Shown here one piece after another: positions 13,761 to 20,508 of a stretch of 64,000 bases of DNA (position 1 is its first letter; each line of letters starts with the position of its first letter). Made by a program: the position numbers and the translations under genes. This stretch comes from a bacterium (GTDB lineage Bacteria; Patescibacteriota; Minisyncoccia; Phycocordibacterales; JAKAEA01): contig JAKAEA010000001.1 of assembly GCA_021818465.1 (NCBI GenBank), positions 41,972 through 105,971 on the forward strand. The letters are read 5' to 3'. The notes beneath the pieces are model-generated. The model saw nothing but the letters and a program-made list of their open reading frames with translations, searched no databases and had not been told where the DNA came from.

Positions 13761-14984
13761 TCAAAATTCTACAAACGTCAGCGCCTTGCCTCGTTTATCC
13801 CCTCTTCCTGTTCGGCCAATACGATGCACGTAATCATCATAGGTAGCCGGGATGTCGAAATTGATGACGTGACTAACATCAGCAATATCAAGACCGCGAG
13901 CGGCAACATCGGTTGCAACCAATACCTTCACCACATCACTTTTGAAAAGTTTTAACGCCCGCTGTCGTTGTGTGTGTGATTTATTACCATGAATTGATTC
14001 AGCTCGAATACCTTTTTCAATAAGAAGTTGAGAAAGTTTTTCCACGCCATATTTTGTTCGACCAAAGATAAGGACTTTATTGAAGTCTTTTTGATTCAAC
14101 ATGTCGTGCAAAACATCAATCTTTGAGGCGCCTTGTGCAATTCGTACAACGTCCTGATCAATATTTTTAGAGGTACGTTGAGTTGCAACAGAAATTCGCA
14201 CAGGATCTTTCAGAAATTCCTGAATAAGTTTTTCAATTTCTACAGACAACGTCGCTGAAAAGAAAAGCGTTTGCCGTTCTGCGGGCATGCCGGCCATGAT
14301 AAGGCGCATATCGTGCACAAATCCCATATCGAGCATACGATCAGCTTCGTCAAGCACAATAGTTTTAAACTCAGATAATCTAATCCTTCCGTGCTGGATA
14401 AAATCTTTCAGCCGACCTGGTGTTCCAATAATAAAATTATTAGGAAATCGCAGTTCTCGAATTTGATTGCCAATAGATACCCCCCCAACACATACCACAG
14501 AAAATATATTCATATTTTTAGTGAAACCCTTGAGTTCCTGATCAATCTGAATAGCCAATTCTCGTGTCGGCACAACAATCAAAACTTGCTCCTTTCTATT
14601 ACGTAGTACTTTATTGATGAGCGGAATAAGAAAAGCTGCGGTTTTTCCAGTGCCAGTATTTGCAATACCAAGCACATCAACATTTTTAAGAATGTGAGGA
14701 ATAGACCGATCTTGAATGGGAGTCGGTTGACTATATCCTTTTGCGGCAATAGTTTGTTTCAAAGAGGCATCAATATTGAAATCCTGAAACGCATGCTCTG
14801 GCACAAACGGCTGAATTTTTTCGGCAGCAACTGATTTATTAATAAATTTTGCTGGATCTATATATTGGCCGAAATTTTTACTTCGACTACGCCGATTTTG
14901 AAACGATTGTGATTGAAAACGGTTTCCTCCACGTACACCGTGAGGTTTTGTAAATGATTTTTTATACATTTTTTTAGGAAACAA
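13761..14984 (-). CDS. DEAD-box ATP-dependent RNA helicase
   Basis: Q-motif, ANTGTGKTAAF, DEAD (VLDEADRMLDMGF), SAT and HRIGRTGR motifs. Confidence 0.92.
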   Translation of the reverse strand: MFPKKMYKKSFTKPHGVRGGNRFQSQSFQNRRSRSKNFGQYIDPAKFINKSVAAEKIQPFVPEHAFQDFNIDASLKQTIAAKGYSQPTPIQDRSIPHILKNVDVLGIANTGTGKTAAFLIPLINKVLRNRKEQVLIVVPTRELAIQIDQELKGFTKNMNIFSVVCVGGVSIGNQIRELRFPNNFIIGTPGRLKDFIQHGRIRLSEFKTIVLDEADRMLDMGFVHDMRLIMAGMPAERQTLFFSATLSVEIEKLIQEFLKDPVRISVATQRTSKNIDQDVVRIAQGASKIDVLHDMLNQKDFNKVLIFGRTKYGVEKLSQLLIEKGIRAESIHGNKSHTQRQRALKLFKSDVVKVLVATDVAARGLDIADVSHVINFDIPATYDDYVHRIGRTGRGDKRGKALTFVEF

Positions 14985-15885: not shown

Positions 15886-16506
15886 CTACTTGCGGAAGGC
15901 AAACCAATTGAAGATGCCGATGAAGCTCTCGGCCAAGCAGAGGTCCGTCTCGCGCTGCGAGTCGTACCACCAGACAGAGCAGGCGTAGCGGTTACTCTCG
16001 AAGGTGCAATCCGTTGTAGCCACCACATACATCGGATTTTGACCGAGCTTGGTGTGGAGCGCAGGATTGTGTTCACCGATGGCGAAGACTTCGCGCGGAT
16101 TGGTCCGATTGAGTCCTTTGGATTTGGCCCATCTGAGAGCTTTGTCCCAATTGCCGCCACCATTGGGGAAATTGAGGAGGATAATCTCCTGCTCAATAGT
16201 CCCCATTTCGACTGGAGGATACTGCCTACCAATCTTGCGGACATTGTGGTAAACCATCGTTTTGGTACTAGCGGCATCGATTGCCTCCTGCCATTCACGC
16301 TCCTGATTCACCTTTACCGTGAGCACACGGACACGAGCGCCTTTCGGCGGCTGTATGTCCTTGAGCTCCAGCTTGAGTGAATCAAGAAAACGGCTAAATG
16401 AGCCGTTGTCGAGGGCTTGCTGGAACTGCTGGCGACTGACGCCTTTGTCGATGGCCATATTACGAACGGAATCTGACTGACTGGAAGTAACAAGTTTGTC
16501 GCTCAT
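15886..16506 (-). CDS. hypothetical protein, distant paralog of the DGR target protein
   Basis: Weak collinear similarity to ORF 19195..19983 (LLNFPNGGGNWDKALRWAKSKG vs LLVDLGIITVPDDYDHATALAKFGKK; VWWYDSQRE vs VWDQKRDQ). Strong Shine-Dalgarno and a promoter/leader shared with 16764..17040. Confidence 0.45.
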   Translation of the reverse strand: MSDKLVTSSQSDSVRNMAIDKGVSRQQFQQALDNGSFSRFLDSLKLELKDIQPPKGARVRVLTVKVNQEREWQEAIDAASTKTMVYHNVRKIGRQYPPVEMGTIEQEIILLNFPNGGGNWDKALRWAKSKGLNRTNPREVFAIGEHNPALHTKLGQNPMYVVATTDCTFESNRYACSVWWYDSQRETDLCLAESFIGIFNWFAFRK

Positions 16507-16634
16507 AACTGACTCCTTTTATTGCGCTCACCTCAAGCTCCGAAACACTCGGCACCAGAGGCAGACAAGTTCAATGAACGTACTGGTTGATATAATGTAT
16601 CAAAAATACCGACTTGTCAAATATGGGTGCTCAC
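16504..16634 (-). promoter_or_regulatory. promoter plus conserved roughly 95-nt 5' leader, copy A
   Basis: TTGACA -35, a TATATC -10-like element, and a structured leader ending in the AAGGAG Shine-Dalgarno. About 90% identical to copy B at 17038..17168. Confidence 0.5.
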
Positions 16635-16763: not shown

Positions 16764-17040
16764 TCAAAAACACGGTGTCCTTATGATGTCTTCCTTACCA
16801 CAGAGTTTACAGTTACCTTCCACATCAAAAGTTGGATGCGGACACTGCCCCTGAACAACCGCGAGCTGCAGCTTGACTTTTGCAACCTTGTCAGCAAGAT
16901 CGTGTTGTTGCTCTCTGAGCTTGTTAAGTCGCTCCTGAATCGGACGCAGCTTCCTTTTAAGGGTCACAGTTTTTAGCTTCTTTTCATTCGGCGGTGTAAG
17001 ACTTGGGTAAGACACAGCAACAAACCTCTTGTAGTGCATA
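16764..17040 (-). CDS. small coiled-coil / C-terminal zinc-ribbon protein (start MHYKRF at 17040)
   Basis: ORF directly follows copy B of the duplicated leader. C-terminal CPHP...CKLCGK Cys cluster. Confidence 0.4.
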
Positions 17041-17168
17041 TAACTGACTCCTTTTATTGCGCCCACCTCAAGCTCCGAAACACTCGGCACCAGAGGCAGA
17101 CAAGTTCAATGAACGTACTGGTTTATATAAAATATTAAAAATACGTACTTGTCAAGGATGGGTCTTAA
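17038..17168 (-). promoter_or_regulatory. promoter plus conserved 5' leader, copy B
   Basis: Direct repeat of 16504..16634 with TTGACA -35. Confidence 0.5.
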
Positions 17169-17327
17169 CCGTGATACTAATAGTCACCCGCTTTTTGACC
17201 GACACCTAATCGAATCTACCTATACCCAGCTTTGTTTTTTGAGAGAGATGATGCGGAGAGAGGGGGTTGGGGTTTGAGGAGAATTTCGGAGAAAAACTAA
17301 ATTCAAAGGCTATCGTGACGGTAATAG

Positions 17328-18356
17328 TTACCCCGGAACAGCTGACAATTGCAGGGGAATGTTTTGCGCCGCAACATTTTCACAAATCATTTTGAGCCTC
17401 TTTTGCAATTGATAAGTGTTTCCATGTCCAAGAAGTCCGCGATACGAGCTTATCGTTTCTCGTTTTGGATAACCTTTCATCATACGAACTATTTTTCGTT
17501 TTGTCGTTGTCCTAATCTGCCGATGGTGAGGGAAATGGACCCAACCGAGAAAATCCACACCAGAGTCGTATGTTTTTATATAGACTTTGTGTTCATGAAG
17601 CGTGAGGTGTAGTTTTTCATTGAGAAATTTTTGTAGCCATGGCAAAAGCTTTTCTAAATATTCTTTGCTCTCAGACAGGATCGCAAAATCATCAGCATAG
17701 CGGAGATAGTATTTTATTCGCAACTCCTGTTTGAGGTACACATCAAATTCGTGCATATACACATTCACGAGAAGCTGGGATGTGAGATTGCCGAGCGGTA
17801 AACCAATGCCAGAAGTAGTCGTGTAAAAACTTGAGATAACTTTATGAATAAGCGCCCGGATATCTGGATCAACAATATGCCGTTCAAGAATTTTCATTAA
17901 AATCGCGTGGTCAACGCTCGCAAAGAATTTCCGTATATCGCATTTAAGCACGTAACATGTTCGTGTGTGATTTTTAGATACCTTTCGAGCAAAATCTCTA
18001 AAGCGATCGAGCGCCTTGTGCGTCCCTTTATTTTTTCGACAGGAATAGGAATCAAAAATAAATTGCTGATGGAAATGCCAGTACAATTCTTTATAAATAA
18101 GGTGGTGCAATATCCTATCACGAACCGTAGCTTTGTGAATGTTGCGTGGTTTCGGGTCAGAAATGTTGAAAGCTGAATATGAGCCGTGCGTATATGTTTT
18201 ATTTTTTAGATCGGAGTAGAGACTGGCAATATTGGTTGCTAGTTCTGCTTGAAATTTAATGACATCTTTTTTCTTTTTCTTGCCACGCAGAAACCGCTCC
18301 CATGTCAGGAGTAGATTTTCGATGGTAATGATAGAATTGTATGTATGAGTGAACAC
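17328..18356 (-). CDS. diversity-generating retroelement reverse transcriptase
   Basis: 342-aa RT with the DGR-type motif 4 IGLPLGNLTSQ and YADDFAIL. The size is typical of DGR RTs, and it sits next to an Avd gene and a TR/VR pair. Confidence 0.85.
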   Translation of the reverse strand: MFTHTYNSIITIENLLLTWERFLRGKKKKKDVIKFQAELATNIASLYSDLKNKTYTHGSYSAFNISDPKPRNIHKATVRDRILHHLIYKELYWHFHQQFIFDSYSCRKNKGTHKALDRFRDFARKVSKNHTRTCYVLKCDIRKFFASVDHAILMKILERHIVDPDIRALIHKVISSFYTTTSGIGLPLGNLTSQLLVNVYMHEFDVYLKQELRIKYYLRYADDFAILSESKEYLEKLLPWLQKFLNEKLHLTLHEHKVYIKTYDSGVDFLGWVHFPHHRQIRTTTKRKIVRMMKGYPKRETISSYRGLLGHGNTYQLQKRLKMICENVAAQNIPLQLSAVPG

Positions 18357-18391
18357 GGGCCATTAAGTACCCCCCCATTCCACTTGTTCTT

Positions 18392-18733
18392 GTGCGCGCG
18401 AAAGAGACGTACCAATTGTGGCATAGCTCGATCGTAAATTTAAAGCGCGTTGATCGCTACACGCTCGGTGCAAAGATAGACGATGCGTTTCTCTCGCTCC
18501 TCGAGCTCATATTTAGGGGCCGTTTTGCCTATGACAAATTCGAGAAGTTGTCGCTTGTTTCCCAGGCTATCGCAAAATCCGACCTCTTAAAATTCTTTTT
18601 GCAGCTCGGATGGGAGCATAAAGTGATTGACCACAAAAACTACGGTGCGCTCATTCTCCTCCTGGATGAAGTCGGCCGCATGCTCGATGGATGGAAGAAA
18701 AATCTTTCAGACAAAACTCCCGCCAATAAATAG
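18392..18733 (+). CDS. avd: DGR accessory variability determinant (Avd, four-helix-bundle protein)
   Basis: 113 aa. C-terminal LDEVGRMLDGWKK matches the Avd/23S-IVS family pattern (bAvd IAEVGRILGSW). GTG start. Divergent from the RT. Confidence 0.7.
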   Translation: MRAKETYQLWHSSIVNLKRVDRYTLGAKIDDAFLSLLELIFRGRFAYDKFEKLSLVSQAIAKSDLLKFFLQLGWEHKVIDHKNYGALILLLDEVGRMLDGWKKNLSDKTPANK

Positions 18734-18750
18734 CGGGAGAAATCATCTGA

Positions 18751-18872
18751 GTCGCAGAAGCAGAGGAAGGCATTGTCGTCGTTCCAAACGTTCTCGAAGT
18801 TACCGATGTTGAAGTTGAAGTCACCGTCCGAGTTGGCGTTCACGTTCGGCACCCTGTGGTTGCCGTCGGCAT
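18751..18872 (-). repeat. DGR template repeat (TR)
   Basis: 122-nt repeat aligning without gaps to 19222..19343. All 19 mismatches are at TR adenines on the coding strand. TR reading frame is Asn(AAC)-rich (NVNANSDGDFNFNIGNFENVWNDDN). Confidence 0.88.
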
Positions 18873-19123
18873 ACCCCCTCAAGCAATGTACGACGTGTCG
18901 TCGGGACCACCAAAAAGAGCACCAGCTCCCTTTTGTATTTTATTCCGAGTCTAAACCTCGTTAACACATCGCACCGACTTATTTGATTTTTTCATAAAGG
19001 CAGCCCTCATCCGCAAGGCGTACCCAGCGGACCACTCGCTGATTCCTAGTACGAGAATTTGACGGCATGAAGCCAGTAGCCGCATGCTCTATCTTATTCC
19101 AGACGCAATTGTACCTGATTTGT

Positions 19124-19160
19124 ATAAAAAAATTGAGCCCTCGCAGTGAAGCAAGGGCTC
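19124..19160 (-). terminator. rho-independent terminator of the DGR target gene
   Basis: gagccct-n12-agggctc hairpin followed by a U-run on the minus strand. An additional gggtcttagaccc hairpin lies right after the stop. Confidence 0.55.
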
Positions 19161-19194
19161 AAAGGGTCTAAGACCCGAAGAACATTCTGAGTGC

Positions 19195-19983
19195 CTAAGC
19201 GACTGAGGACTCGGGTTCCAAGTCGCAGAAGCAGAGGAAGGCATCGTCGACGCGCCAAACGTCCTCGAAGTCACCGATGTCGAAGCGGAAGACACCGTCC
19301 GAGTAGGCGAACACGCTCGGCACCCCGTGGTCGCCGACGGCATCTTGCCAAAGGCGTTCCTTCTCATCGAAGGAGCAATACCACTTACCTTTCGGCAGTT
19401 GGTCGCGCTTCTGGTCCCAGACGAGCGAGGCTCCCTGAGCGCCAACGTGAACCGCTTTCTGCGTGGCCAGGAAGGCCATGCGCTCCTCGGAAGTTGTGCT
19501 TCCACCAACGACTTGCTTGAACGCGCGAACGCGGAGCTTGTCGCCGGGTTTGAGGATACGGGTCGGATTCGGGAAGTTGGGATCGGTGATCGCTTCGTTG
19601 TAGTAATAGAACTTTTTACGGTTCTTCTTACCAAACTTGGCGAGCGCTGTCGCGTGATCGTAGTCATCCGGCACCGTAATGATGCCGAGGTCAACGAGCA
19701 GAGCGAACTTCTCCGTGGATTCTGCAGGGGCTTGAGGCTCCGGCTTCTTCCAGTCGCCGAACCGCGCTTCCCGATCGTCCGTGGAGAGGTTGTTGAACCG
19801 CTCCCATTGGCCGAGGGTGATTTGACCGCTTCGCACCTTTTGAAGGGTGTCGATTTGCAAACCAGCCAGTTTGGCCGCATTTGCGCCGATGACAGTACTC
19901 ATCGTTTGTCCTTTCTTTACAATGTGCTTCCGGAAATCTGCCGGATCAGGCGCAAGGGTATCTTGCGTGTCAAACAATATCAT
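19195..19983 (-). CDS. DGR target protein with C-terminal variable region (probable start MSTVIG at 19902)
   Basis: The VR occupies the last 50 or so codons before the stop. An internal ATG with a GAAAGGA Shine-Dalgarno and an upstream TTGACA promoter point to the 19902 start. The gene is locally GC-rich. Confidence 0.8.
   Translation of the reverse strand: MILFDTQDTLAPDPADFRKHIVKKGQTMSTVIGANAAKLAGLQIDTLQKVRSGQITLGQWERFNNLSTDDREARFGDWKKPEPQAPAESTEKFALLVDLGIITVPDDYDHATALAKFGKKNRKKFYYYNEAITDPNFPNPTRILKPGDKLRVRAFKQVVGGSTTSEERMAFLATQKAVHVGAQGASLVWDQKRDQLPKGKWYCSFDEKERLWQDAVGDHGVPSVFAYSDGVFRFDIGDFEDVWRVDDAFLCFCDLEPESSVA
19222..19343 (-). repeat. DGR variable repeat (VR)
   Basis: Cognate of the TR. 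Differences are confined to TR-adenine positions. The 23-nt 3' end is identical in TR and VR. Confidence 0.88.
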
Positions 19984-20006
19984 ATAAGATGATATATGTC
20001 AACGGG

Positions 20007-20078
20007 GTGCCTAATGGGACTCGAACCCATACTGCCGCTTCCACAGAGCGAAGTGCTAACCATTACACCATAGGCACC
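20007..20078 (-). tRNA. tRNA-His(GTG)
   Basis: Cloverleaf with extra G-1, anticodon loop CTGTGGA, TTCGAGT T-loop. No encoded CCA. Confidence 0.8.
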
Positions 20079-20508
20079 ATGAGCACTGTTATACCAAACT
20101 TGATAGAGCAACGCTAGGCACACAAGAGCGCCTTGGAAAAAATAATGGTGCGCCGAAAGAAAAATTCAAATAAAAAACTAGCGAAAAAACTAATCGATAA
20201 AATGTATACAGAGCAACGCCTCGGGCGGACTATATTTCCCGAGGCGTTGTGTCGCACAACCACATACTGCCTGCTGCATTATGAGAAGTAAAATAAACGG
20301 CAAGCCAGCCTCACGCACGAGGTCACCTTACCGTACAATAGCGCATACCAACCCCCTCGAAACTTTCTCGCCCCGTATTAACGGAACCGTCACCTCACAT
20401 TACTGCAAAGCCGTCGTGGGAATTGTCTTGATTACGTCAAACAGCACTATTGTCTGTACGTGTCCCTAAATCTACATACTCTAACACCCCACTAGCACTA
20501 AAGTTTCA

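What the first reader, a model, noticed from the sequence alone, without database searches (positions are those of the whole stretch)
18357..18872. Unusual DGR architecture: avd inverted relative to RT and TR, with a non-ATG start
In canonical DGRs avd-TR-RT are co-directional. Here avd is on the plus strand. Its only in-frame start candidates are GTG at 18392 or TTG, 35 bp from the divergent RT start. The TR (minus strand) begins 18 nt after the avd stop, convergent with avd. Any TR-to-RT transcript on the minus strand would be antisense to avd across about 340 nt. This suggests a variant regulatory logic, or an avd transcript that acts as antisense spacer RNA.
Basis: partly seen in the sequence, partly recalled or inferred. 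Interest (0 to 1): 0.6.

Follow-up and report, generated by a model that had tools for sequence, protein, structure and literature searches.

The report
CPR-type DGR; avd frame-switch tract
The back-to-front accessory gene is the normal, already catalogued layout of diversity-generating retroelements in candidate-phyla-radiation bacteria; its odd start codon arises because its conserved ATG start is put out of frame by a short run of C's, a run that differs in length between otherwise identical strains of related bacteria and so may switch targeted hypermutation on and off.

Summary
A bAvd-family ORF (18392..18733, +) lies between a minus-strand TR (18750..18872) and a divergent DGR reverse transcriptase (17328..18356, -). 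All 17 TR/VR mismatches are at TR adenines.

The layout is not unusual. It is architecture B3, TR-(avd)-RT, of Wu et al. 2018, which makes up 90% of their CPR set. All 143 Patescibacteria relatives with an avd hit next to the RT have the same divergent avd.

The non-ATG start has a better explanation. The family's avd start is an ATG antisense to RT codon 4 (window 18345-47), which overlaps the RT start by 12 nt. RT codon 4 is CAT in 114 of 135 loci and CAC in 1. A simple-sequence tract follows the ATG: poly-C, (CT)n or (CA)n, and C7 at 18370-76 in the window. In the window this tract puts the ATG out of frame; C8 would restore it.

In relatives the tract is the only indel between contigs that are otherwise identical outside the VR.

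TR looks like part of its own RNA unit. It has a roughly 210-nt covarying 5' leader and a conserved hairpin with a U-run over the avd stop codon. I found no RNA-level constraint antisense to the avd body.

The parts
19195..19983 (-). DGR target gene (262 aa, no Pfam match). It has a promoter-like site at 20002..19974 and tRNA-His just upstream.
   Evidence: ORF list, Pfam scan, promoter scan, tRNA scan.
19221..19343 (-). Variable repeat (VR) at the 3' end of the target gene.
   Evidence: 123-nt repeat with TR at 86% identity. All 17 mismatches are at TR adenines (alignment).
19133..19162 (-). Terminator-like hairpin (12 bp followed by T7) after the target gene. It is conserved in relatives.
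   Evidence: Terminator scan and alignment A3.
19108..19113 (-). Conserved -10-like box (TACAAT here, TATAAT in relatives) just after the target terminator. It is the candidate promoter of the TR RNA.
   Evidence: Alignment A3: invariant T, A, A and T columns. No convincing -35 element. A consensus promoter scan across 103 loci was not enriched, so this is inferred.
18888..19086 (-). Structured non-coding leader immediately 5' of TR. It has 8 helices, including a long-range helix pairing 18974-18963 with 18899-18888.
   Evidence: RNAalifold on 89 loci predicts 39 pairs, 35 with compensatory changes. 94.3% of cells are paired, against 66.3% in shuffles (0 of 500 reached it) and about 43% when partners are slid. 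Window mapping. No Rfam family matches.
18750..18872 (-). Template repeat (TR).
18708..18739 (-). Conserved 9-bp hairpin (18739..18717) followed by a U-run, starting 10 nt after TR. Its 5' arm is non-coding, its loop holds the avd stop codon, and its 3' arm with the U-run is antisense to the avd 'KTP' codons. It is a candidate Avd-binding stem-loop, an intrinsic terminator of the TR RNA, or both.
   Evidence: Terminator scan. Present in 103 of 125 relatives under lenient criteria. Under stringent criteria it is present at 77 of 125 sites against 25 of 2344 random windows, with 62 distinct 5' arms and covarying inner pairs. Handa et al. report putative Avd-binding stem-loops, commonly 9 bp, just downstream of TR in 207 of 278 DGRs.
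18377..18733 (+). Avd body (four-helix-bundle accessory protein). The conserved N-terminal 'IPLVL' begins at 18377; the first canonical start in this frame is GTG 18392.
   Evidence: Pfam bAvd. Amino-acid conservation continues upstream of the GTG in relatives. In a tract-less relative, position 1 of the bAvd profile extrapolates to 'PLVL': profile 6 matches residue 18.
18370..18376 (+). C7 simple-sequence tract between the conserved avd ATG and the Avd body. It sets the reading frame: C7 is out of frame, and C8 or C5 would be in frame.
   Evidence: 130 of 143 relatives carry a tract of at least 7 nt at this site: poly-C of 7-15, (CT)n, or (CA)n. The site is about 400-fold enriched for such tracts over the rest of the loci. 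Tract length differs between near-identical contigs of relatives.
18345..18356 (.). 12-nt head-to-head overlap of the two start regions. The avd ATG (18345-47, +) is antisense to RT codon 4 (CAT). The RT GTG (18356-54, -) is antisense to avd codon 4 (CAC). Both proteins begin M-x-x-H.
   Evidence: RT codon 4 is CAT in 114 of 135 distinct loci and CAC in 1. Elsewhere in the RT genes His codons are CAT 1270 and CAC 807.
17328..18356 (-). DGR reverse transcriptase (342 aa, GTG start; ATG in most close relatives).
   Evidence: Pfam RVT_1. More than 500 homologous loci in Patescibacteria MAGs and metagenomes.

Best explanation
This is an ordinary member of the CPR/Patescibacteria class of diversity-generating retroelements with the known B3 layout: target(VR) - TR - (avd, reversed) - RT. 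It most likely works as three units.

1. **Target gene.** It has its own terminator.
2. **TR RNA.** This looks like a self-contained non-coding RNA. A conserved -10-like box is followed by a roughly 210-nt covarying structured leader, then TR, then a conserved hairpin with a U-run over the avd stop codon. The hairpin is probably the analogue of the Avd-binding stem-loop, and it also has the form of an intrinsic terminator. If it terminates, the TR RNA overlaps only the last about 25-45 nt of avd in antisense.
3. **A head-to-head avd/RT pair.** Their start regions overlap by 12 nt.

The family's avd start is the ATG antisense to RT codon 4, at window 18345. Translation from it must pass a simple-sequence tract before it reaches the conserved Avd body. 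In the window the tract is C7, which leaves the ATG one nucleotide short of being in frame. This is why only a GTG appears to be available.

The tract is hypermutable at the DNA level in relatives. I infer that it gates or tunes Avd production, and through it mutagenic retrohoming, by slipped-strand length changes. Transcriptional or ribosomal slippage on the C-run may assist.

**Shown:** the anatomy, the conservation, the covariation, the tract polymorphism in relatives, and selection on the antisense ATG. **Inferred:** the transcript ends, the role of the hairpin, and the effect of tract length on Avd and on DGR activity.
For: **Architecture**
- B3 is defined in PMC5758913 and makes up 90% of its CPR set.
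- All 143 relatives with an avd hit next to the RT have it divergent.
- An A-biased TR sits a median of about 16 nt from the avd stop in 103 loci.

**The conserved ATG is the avd start**
- 12 of 13 relatives with no tract or a short one have an in-frame ATG 8-24 codons upstream. Where checked, their Avd proteins are 122-131 aa and begin MxxH.
- RT codon 4 is CAT 114 times and CAC once. The background in the RT genes is 61:39.
- Amino-acid conservation ('PPP.Q.PLVL') continues upstream of the GTG.
- 21 of 102 poly-C loci have no canonical start in the avd frame at all.
- Downstream start codons are no commoner in out-of-frame loci (55 of 78) than in in-frame loci (25 of 31).

**Tract**
- It is present in 130 of 143 loci, with different repeat units in different lineages.
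- It accounts for nearly all G/C homopolymers and dinucleotide repeats in 850 kb of loci.
- L155 and L157 are 99.4% identical over 2952 nt. Their only indel is the tract (G10 versus G8), and 15 of their 17 substitutions lie in VR.
- In the P0058 group, eight tract-spanning contigs with an identical RT from different sequencing runs differ only in VR and in the tract (G9 in four, G10 in four). L191 and L192 share a VR but differ in the tract.
- Twelve of 32 contigs in the four groups end inside the tract.

**TR RNA unit**
- Leader covariation.
- Hairpin enrichment and covariation.
- Flat synonymous-site profile over the avd body.
- Published Avd-binding stem-loops just 3' of TR.
Against: - In the window's own strain, the only two assemblies found both carry C7. 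C7 is the shortest tract class. Polymorphism is therefore shown in relatives, not here.
- Frames in poly-C loci are not enriched for in-frame: 32 of 102 have an in-frame upstream ATG.
- The P0058 lineage is actively diversifying, yet all eight spanning contigs carry out-of-frame tracts. C9 and C10 are seen; C8 or C11 would be needed. Either the ON state is a transient minority, or Avd is made regardless of frame, from the GTG or by slippage.
- Contig breaks and length differences of one nucleotide at long G-runs can be technical.
- No sigma-70-like promoter is enriched upstream of TR.
- Termination at the hairpin is untested. If the element uses a Bordetella-like primer site downstream of the hairpin, the RNA must read past the U-run.
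Confidence: 0.7

Rival explanations
1. avd really initiates at GTG 18392, or at a non-canonical codon such as ATT 18377. The C-tract is not coding. It belongs to the RT 5' region, as a ribosome-binding or leader element or as a promoter spacer whose length tunes RT transcription. This would resemble phase-variable promoters with poly-G or poly-C between -35 and -10.
For: - Gene callers call a 113-aa Avd from the GTG in the window's strain and in the P0058 lineage.
- The P0058 lineage diversifies its VR although its tract is out of frame with the upstream ATG.
- Frames are close to uniform across loci.
- On the RT strand the tract is G- or GA-rich and lies 11-26 nt, most often 13 nt, upstream of the RT start. 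By my own reading of the sequences, about a third of loci have a TAnnnT hexamer directly after it.
- The bAvd domain would lose only about 4 of its 107 positions.
Against: - The antisense ATG is conserved at a synonymous site: CAT 114, CAC 1.
- Relatives without a tract nearly always have an in-frame upstream ATG, in 12 of 13 cases.
- The codon at the GTG position is not conserved as a start. It is Val, Thr, Ala, Ser, Leu, Glu or Gln in different relatives, and 21 of 102 poly-C loci have no canonical start at all.
- The (CA)n and (TG)n tracts do not resemble a Shine-Dalgarno sequence.
- No Shine-Dalgarno sequence precedes GTG 18392.
Confidence: 0.2
2. A TR-to-RT read-through transcript is antisense to all of avd. 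This antisense stretch, or the avd mRNA itself, serves as the spacer RNA or as an antisense regulator.
For: - The geometry allows it.
- The Bordetella DGR needs about 140 nt of RNA downstream of TR, including the priming adenosine.
- The hairpin with its U-run may not terminate efficiently.
- Some loci show short complementarity between the TR 3' end and sequence 7-13 nt beyond the hairpin.
Against: - There is no excess synonymous-site conservation over the avd body. It is lowest in the roughly 100 nt beyond the hairpin region.
- The TR-end/downstream duplex fails a partner-swap test: 82 of 500 permutations did as well.
- The large conserved, covarying RNA domain lies upstream of TR, not downstream.
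- A terminator-like hairpin is conserved exactly at the boundary between TR and avd.
Confidence: 0.1
3. The frame is bypassed at the RNA level by programmed slippage, not by DNA phase variation. RNA polymerase stuttering, or tRNA-Pro re-pairing on CCC-C, would deliver a fraction of ribosomes into the Avd frame whatever the tract length. Tract length would then be nearly neutral.
For: - Frames in poly-C loci are close to uniform, with 32 of 102 in frame.
- The DGR is active in a lineage whose consensus tracts are out of frame.
- Poly-C reads as poly-Pro in all three frames. From established knowledge, CCC-C is a known shift-prone site.
Against: - (CT)n and (CA)n tracts occupy the same site in about 25 loci. 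They cannot be slipped over by tRNA re-pairing.
- Those dinucleotide loci are more often in frame, 12 of 26.
- DNA-level length change is directly observed.
- The P0044 lineage has an out-of-frame G8 tract in all 8 contigs and an invariant VR. That fits a true OFF state.
Confidence: 0.2
4. Artefact or decay. The C7 length is a homopolymer sequencing or assembly error, or avd in this genome is a frameshifted pseudogene of a dead DGR.
For: - Homopolymer G/C runs are error-prone, and contigs often break there.
- Only one strain sample is available for the window.
Against: - Two assemblies agree on C7.
- The Avd body, RT, TR, leader and hairpin are all intact.
- All 17 TR/VR differences are at TR adenines, which implies past activity.
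- The same out-of-frame arrangement recurs in about two thirds of 102 independent loci. Decay would not preserve the tract, the ATG and the body together.
Confidence: 0.05

Closest known systems
Architecture B3, TR-(avd)-RT, DGRs of candidate phyla radiation bacteria (Wu et al. 2018, NAR 46:11, PMC5758913; CPR DGRs first surveyed by Paul et al. 2017, which I could not read)
   Same: The order and orientation of TR, reversed avd and RT are the same. There is a single upstream target with a C-terminal VR, and the host lineage is Patescibacteria. The RT and Avd are homologous to those of hundreds of such loci.
   Different: Nothing differs at the level of architecture. The papers I could read do not mention the features documented here: the simple-sequence tract in the 5' end of avd, the 12-nt overlap of start codons, the covarying leader 5' of TR, and the U-run after the hairpin.
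Bordetella phage BPP-1 DGR (mtd-avd-TR-Sp-brt) and its DGR RNA (Handa et al. 2018, PMC6182149; preprint 10.1101/2023.10.23.563531)
   Same: Mutagenesis is adenine-specific, from TR to VR. An Avd partner and a DGR-type RT are present. A stem-loop of about 9 bp lies just 3' of TR, where the Avd-binding stem-loop sits in Bordetella.
   Different: - avd is on the other strand and downstream of TR.
- There is no non-coding spacer between TR and RT.
- The large conserved structured RNA domain lies 5' of TR instead of 3'.
- The hairpin is followed by a U-run.
- No conserved RNA is detectable beyond about 45 nt 3' of TR.
Simple-sequence-repeat contingency loci (translational phase variation by poly-G/C or dinucleotide tracts in the 5' coding region, as in Neisseria, Haemophilus, Campylobacter and Helicobacter)
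   Same: A homopolymeric G/C or dinucleotide tract lies shortly after the start codon. Its length sets the reading frame. Its length differs between otherwise identical genomes. Different repeat units occupy the same site in different lineages.
   Different: - The gated gene is not a surface or restriction-modification gene but the accessory factor of a hypermutation machine.
- The hosts are uncultivated Patescibacteria.
- Reversible switching and an effect on expression have not been shown.
- In-frame states are not enriched in consensus assemblies.
Phase-variable divergent promoters (for example hifA/hifB TA repeats in Haemophilus influenzae, or poly-G/C between -35 and -10 in Neisseria porA and opc)
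   Same: A repeat tract lies between two divergently oriented genes.
   Different: Here the two coding regions overlap, so the tract lies inside the avd reading frame. No -35/-10 pair flanking the tract could be identified.

Membership tests
Diversity-generating retroelement (DGR) | A TR/VR repeat pair whose differences fall almost only at TR adenines | tested here: met
   17 mismatches over 123 nt, all at TR adenines.
Diversity-generating retroelement (DGR) | A reverse transcriptase of the DGR clade next to TR | tested here: met
   Pfam RVT_1 at 95.9 bits. The (I/L)GxxxSQ-type motif LGNLTSQ and the YADD motif are in the translation. Its closest homologues, at 54-86% identity, sit in loci with A-biased TR/VR pairs.
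Diversity-generating retroelement (DGR) | VR inside the 3' end of a protein-coding target gene | tested here: met
   VR 19221..19343 lies within ORF 19195..19983 (-).
Diversity-generating retroelement (DGR) | Ongoing mutagenic retrohoming | not testable with these tools
   Only one strain sample exists for the window. In relatives, near-identical contigs differ almost only in VR, which shows activity within the family.
Avd (bAvd) accessory protein | Sequence match to the four-helix-bundle Avd family above the curated threshold | tested here: met
   PF22296 at 43.7 bits, cutoff 40, covering profile positions 15-106 of 107.
Architecture B3, TR-(avd)-RT (Wu et al. 2018) | TR and RT on one strand, with avd between them on the opposite strand | tested here: met
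   Coordinates. Definition. The same layout holds in all 143 relatives with an adjacent avd hit.
Architecture B3, TR-(avd)-RT (Wu et al. 2018) | Host from the candidate phyla radiation | tested here: met
   The closest loci come from Patescibacteria, Saccharibacteria, Paceibacterota and Nomurabacteria MAGs. The source record is GCA_027341405.1; I did not see its taxon label.
SSR-mediated phase-variable (contingency) gene | A simple-sequence tract within the 5' coding region, where a change of one unit shifts the frame | tested here: met
   C7 at 18370-76 lies between ATG 18345 and the Avd body. The ATG is under selection.
SSR-mediated phase-variable (contingency) gene | Tract length polymorphism among otherwise identical or near-identical genomes | tested here: inconclusive
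   Met in relatives: G10/G8, G9/G10, G9/G10/G11. Not seen in the window's own strain, where two assemblies both carry C7.
SSR-mediated phase-variable (contingency) gene | High-frequency reversible ON/OFF switching of expression within a clonal population | not testable with these tools
   This needs read-level data, cultures or reporters.
Bordetella-type DGR RNA (TR flanked by a functional 3' spacer) | A stem-loop just downstream of TR (Avd-binding element) | tested here: met
   A 9-bp hairpin starts 10 nt after TR. It is conserved and covaries. A published counterpart is described. Binding itself was not tested.
Bordetella-type DGR RNA (TR flanked by a functional 3' spacer) | About 140 nt of functional RNA 3' of TR, including the priming site and a duplex with sequence upstream of TR | tested here: not met
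   There is no nucleotide-level constraint antisense to the avd body. The partner-swap test for a TR-end/downstream duplex was negative. The conserved structured domain lies 5' of TR.
Intrinsic (Rho-independent) terminator | A GC-rich hairpin followed directly by a U-run | tested here: met
   18739..18717 followed by TTTTGTCTGA. Stringent hairpin plus U-run at 77 of 125 sites, against 1.1% of random windows. Actual termination was not tested.

The most novel reading that the evidence does not exclude
In the CPR class of DGRs, the hypermutation machine may itself be under a hypermutable switch. The conserved avd ATG overlaps the RT start on the opposite strand. It is separated from the Avd body by a contingency-type simple-sequence tract (poly-C, (CT)n or (CA)n). 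Slippage of this tract would turn Avd, and with it mutagenic retrohoming, ON and OFF stochastically. The window would then be in an OFF frame (C7, with C8 being ON).

In the same family, the non-coding RNA domain that Bordetella carries 3' of TR appears to have moved to a roughly 210-nt covarying leader 5' of TR. That leader matches no Rfam family.
Probability: 0.4. Interest if true: 0.75.

Novelty: new member of a known kind. Interest (0 to 1): 0.5.

Why it matters
As flagged, the inverted avd adds nothing new. It is the catalogued B3 layout of CPR DGRs, and this locus is one more member.

What could matter is the explanation of the 'non-ATG start'. Suppose a hypermutable repeat gates Avd in most Patescibacteria DGRs. 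Targeted protein diversification in these tiny episymbiotic bacteria would then be bet-hedged at the population level, with bursts of hypermutation in a subpopulation and a stable target in the rest. That would address the open question of how DGR activity is regulated and its cost contained.

It also has a practical consequence. Gene callers systematically truncate or miss avd in these genomes, calling 113 aa, 79 aa or nothing. Assemblies also break at the tract.

The covarying leader 5' of TR gives a concrete RNA to test in reconstitution experiments. It suggests that the DGR ribonucleoprotein can be built with its RNA domains in a permuted order.

Tried and rejected
- **TGA recoding.** An in-frame ATG at 18341 is followed by TGA at 18350. 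I rejected this reading because long ORFs in the window are intact under table 11. In addition, the ATG conserved in relatives is the one at 18345.
- **Co-directional small avd on the minus strand.** Six ORFs of 35-80 aa were scanned and none matched a family.
- **Same-strain tract polymorphism.** Only two assemblies carry the window's RT, and they are identical.
- **Hairpin alignment.** MAFFT with RNAalifold predicted no structure because the arms were misaligned. I replaced it with an anchored count and a random-window control.
- **Promoter upstream of TR.** Sigma-70 consensus matches were found in 16 of 103 loci, against 13 of 106 controls. This is not enriched.
- **Bordetella-like template:primer duplex** between the TR 3' end and sequence beyond the hairpin. 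It looks suggestive in individual loci but fails the partner-swap permutation, 82 of 500.
- **Constraint antisense to the avd body.** None was found.
- **Rfam.** No family matches in 17000..20200 apart from tRNA-His.
- **Literature.** I found no paper in the held library that links DGRs with simple-sequence repeats or phase variation. Paul et al. 2017 is not held, so I cannot exclude that it mentions these features.
- **P0051 contig group.** The called RT is N-terminally extended, so my fixed window missed the junction. I did not pursue it.
Full report
**1. What is there**

The window carries a complete diversity-generating retroelement on the minus strand, with one gene reversed.

- The target ORF is 19195..19983 (-). 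It ends in a variable repeat (VR) at 19221..19343.
- The template repeat (TR) is 18750..18872 (-).
- The two repeats are 86% identical over 123 nt. All 17 mismatches fall at TR adenines.
- The reverse transcriptase is 17328..18356 (-). It starts with GTG, matches Pfam RVT_1, and carries the LGNLTSQ and YADD motifs.
- Between TR and RT, on the plus strand, the ORF 18392..18733 matches Pfam bAvd above the gathering threshold, at 43.7 bits against a cutoff of 40.
- The avd frame opens after TGA 18350-52. Its only canonical in-frame starts are GTG 18392 and TTG 18413.
- The avd stop codon ends 16 nt from the TR 3' end, not 18.

No minus-strand small ORF between RT and target resembles Avd.

**2. 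Is the architecture unusual? No.**

Wu et al. 2018 (PMC5758913) classify DGR cassettes. They define B3 as TR-(avd)-RT, where parentheses mean the reverse strand. [quoted passage not shown]

I tested this independently. I fetched 80 genome loci and 80 metagenome loci with the window's RT. The genome records are from Patescibacteria-group MAGs: Saccharibacteria, Paceibacterota, Nomurabacteria, Kaiserbacteria and others.

- 143 loci have an avd homologue directly upstream of RT, at 34-90% identity. All 143 are on the opposite strand.
- No locus with at least 420 nt upstream of RT lacks it.
- In 103 of the 106 loci with a detectable repeat next to the avd stop, that repeat is an A-biased TR. It lies a median of about 16 nt from the stop codon.
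- In 98 of those loci the VR lies upstream on the RT strand.

The frame is conserved, so the ORF is not a shadow. The layout is the norm for this family.

**3. The non-ATG start**

In the avd frame, amino-acid conservation continues upstream of GTG 18392, as '..PPP.Q.PLVL|VRAKE.Y..WH'. The codon aligned with the GTG is not conserved as a start.

On the avd strand almost every locus has the same three elements in order:

- an ATG antisense to RT codon 4, at window 18345-47;
- 8-15 open codons;
- a simple-sequence tract, which is poly-C of 7-15 nt in about 102 loci (mode 9-10), (CT)n in about 23, and (CA)n in 2.

The window has C7 at 18370-76.

These tracts are specific to this site. The 850 kb of loci hold 133 G/C homopolymers of at least 7 nt and 28 dinucleotide repeats of at least 6 units. 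About 103 and 25 of them, respectively, are this junction.

Frame statistics are as follows.

| Tract class | Loci | In-frame upstream ATG | No canonical start in the avd frame |
|---|---|---|---|
| None or short | 13 | 12 | 0 |
| Poly-C | 102 | 32 | 21 |
| Dinucleotide | 26 | 12 | 3 |

- Tract-less relatives that I translated have Avd proteins of 122-131 aa beginning MxxH.
- Start codons downstream of the tract are not enriched in out-of-frame loci: 55 of 78, against 25 of 31 in-frame loci.
- The antisense ATG is under selection. RT codon 4 is CAT in 114 of 135 distinct loci and CAC in one. Elsewhere in the same RT genes His codons run CAT 1270 to CAC 807.

The family's avd start is therefore this ATG. 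It overlaps the RT start by 12 nt (ATGnnnnnnCAT read both ways), and the tract lies within the coding sequence.

In the window, ATG 18345 opens 'MSEHGPLSTPP|FHLFL...' (ORF 18345..18437). This is homologous to the in-frame 'MSQHILKSTPPAQAPLVL...' of L004. One more C would give 'MSEHGPLSTPPIPLVLVRAKETY...', a protein of 129 aa.

**4. Is the tract hypermutable?**

In relatives, yes.

- **L155 and L157** are 99.4% identical over 2952 nt. Their only indel is the tract, G10 (in frame) versus G8. Of their 17 substitutions, 15 lie in VR.
- **L104, L105 and L108** carry G9, G10 and G11.
- **P0058 group.** Eight tract-spanning contigs from different sequencing runs encode the identical RT. They are identical over about 3.5 kb except for 17-20 substitutions confined to VR (at least four VR haplotypes) and the tract, which is G9 in four and G10 in four. 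L191 and L192 share a VR but differ in the tract.
- **P0061 group.** Eight contigs have G9 and one has G10. By my hand count, G10 is the in-frame length.
- **Contig ends.** Twelve of 32 contigs in four such groups end inside the tract.

There are three caveats.

- The window's own strain is represented by two identical assemblies, both with C7.
- In P0058 both observed lengths are out of frame, although the VR is evidently being diversified.
- Poly-G runs are technically difficult to sequence and assemble.

A Kaiserbacteria lineage (P0044) has an out-of-frame G8 tract in all eight contigs. Its VR is invariant despite SNPs elsewhere, as expected for an OFF state. This is a single case.

**5. 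The TR transcription unit**

Several conserved features flank TR on the minus strand.

- **After the target gene.** A terminator-like hairpin at 19162..19133 follows the target gene. Just after it, relatives share a -10-like box (window TACAAT, 19113..19108) and then about 230 nt of conserved non-coding sequence up to TR.
- **Leader.** On 89 loci RNAalifold predicts 39 base pairs, 35 of them with compensatory changes. Counted on the alignment, 94.3% of cells pair. Shuffles gave 66.3% (0 of 500 reached the observed value), and slid partners gave about 43%. The covariation score is 0.856, against 0.29 in shuffles and about 0.17 for slid partners.
- **Leader position.** In the window the helices span 19086..18888. 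No Rfam family matches. The VR-to-TR distance is 300-400 nt in 91 of 98 loci.
- **Hairpin.** Ten nucleotides after TR lies a 9-bp hairpin with a U-run (18739..18717 plus TTTTGTCTGA). Its 5' arm is non-coding, and its loop contains the avd stop codon. It occurs in 103 of 125 relatives under lenient criteria. Under stringent criteria it occurs at 77 of 125 sites, against 25 of 2344 random windows. There are 62 distinct 5' arms, and the inner pairs covary.

Handa and co-workers report putative Avd-binding stem-loops, commonly 9 bp, just downstream of TR in 207 of 278 Avd-containing DGRs, including CPR members. The hairpin is probably the counterpart of that element.

Beyond the hairpin I find no RNA-level constraint.

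- Synonymous-codon identity along avd is flat, with a mean of 0.44.
- It is lowest in residues 85-105.
- It is raised only in the last 11 codons (0.53-0.56) and the first 9.
- A Bordetella-like duplex between the TR 3' end and downstream sequence is not supported by a partner-swap test.

The idea that the antisense of avd serves as a spacer of about 340 nt is therefore not supported. At most the last roughly 45 nt of avd is shared with the TR RNA. Transcript ends are inferred, not shown. A consensus promoter scan gave no enrichment.

**6. How it most likely works**

The element works as a B3-type DGR made of three units: the target gene, a leader-TR-hairpin RNA, and a head-to-head avd/RT pair. 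RT and Avd presumably assemble on the TR RNA, as they do in Bordetella, although the bulk of the structured RNA lies 5' of TR.

Production of full-length Avd depends on the frame set by the tract. In the window it is one nucleotide short, so Avd could come only from three sources:

- a C8 subpopulation;
- slippage on the C-run;
- weak initiation at GTG 18392, which would remove about 4 of the 107 domain positions.

I rate the architecture and the ATG-plus-tract anatomy as well supported. The functional ON/OFF consequence is plausible at about 0.4. The rivals are a tract that acts on RT expression, RNA-level slippage that makes the frame irrelevant, and artefact or decay.

**7. Novelty and verdict**

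The flagged feature is already known, and the locus is a new member of a known kind.

The papers I could search and read do not describe three family-wide features:

- the simple-sequence tract inside avd;
- the 12-nt overlap of the start codons;
- the covarying leader 5' of TR.

They deserve follow-up. Paul et al. 2017 could not be read, so prior description cannot be excluded.

Noticed in passing
window 16505-16628 and 17040-17163: A 124-nt direct repeat at 92.7% identity. It covers the start and upstream region of two small minus-strand ORFs of unknown function just downstream of the RT (15886..16506, 206 aa, and 16764..17090, 108 aa). It looks like a duplicated promoter and 5' leader.
   Followed up: no
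L199-L206, L186-L187, L196-L197 (upstream ends of contigs): Twelve of 32 contigs that encode identical RT proteins end inside the poly-G/C tract. Either the tract is heterogeneous within samples or it breaks short-read assemblies. Several of the loci first fetched also start within about 100 nt upstream of the RT.
   Followed up: partly
L188-L195 (P0058 lineage); L155 and L157: Contigs from different samples are identical over 3-3.5 kb except in VR (15-20 substitutions, at least 4 haplotypes) and in the tract. This is direct evidence that DGRs of this family are currently active in nature.
   Followed up: yes
L168-L175 (P0044, Kaiserbacteria lineage): Eight contigs share an out-of-frame G8 tract. 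Their VR is identical although 4-6 SNPs occur elsewhere. This looks like a silent DGR.
   Followed up: partly
L082, L168-L175, L163-L167, L177 (called genes): Automatic gene calls for avd in this family are inconsistent: 113-115 aa from an internal GTG, 79-aa fragments, or no call. One RT call is N-terminally extended across the junction to 379 aa. All of these are consequences of the tract.
   Followed up: partly
window 18345-18356: Because the two start regions are mutually antisense (ATGnnnnnnCAT), both Avd and RT begin M-x-x-H. In the window the RT start has become GTG, which is a synonymous His change (CAT to CAC) in avd.
   Followed up: yes
window 18929-18933 paired with 18912-18916, and window 18937-18964: Inside the TR leader, a conserved AAUAAAAUACA block is followed by a covarying hairpin that ends in a U-run. 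The consensus scan also calls a promoter-like site here (TTAACG-16-TAAAAT). It could be a second start site or an attenuator-like element.
   Followed up: no
window 14480 and 50079: These are the only other G/C homopolymers of at least 7 nt in the 64-kb window, both C7. The one at 14480 lies inside the DEAD-box helicase ORF 13761..14984.
   Followed up: no
window 20004-20077: tRNA-His lies immediately upstream of the target gene's promoter-like site. In the P0061 relatives the DGR instead sits next to ribosomal protein genes S12 and S7 and EF-G. The cassette therefore occupies different chromosomal contexts.
   Followed up: no
L163 versus L166 (positions 1069-1072): A 4-nt indel (TGAG) is the only difference between two otherwise identical contigs of the P0051 lineage. 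By position it should fall within avd. I did not examine it.
   Followed up: no
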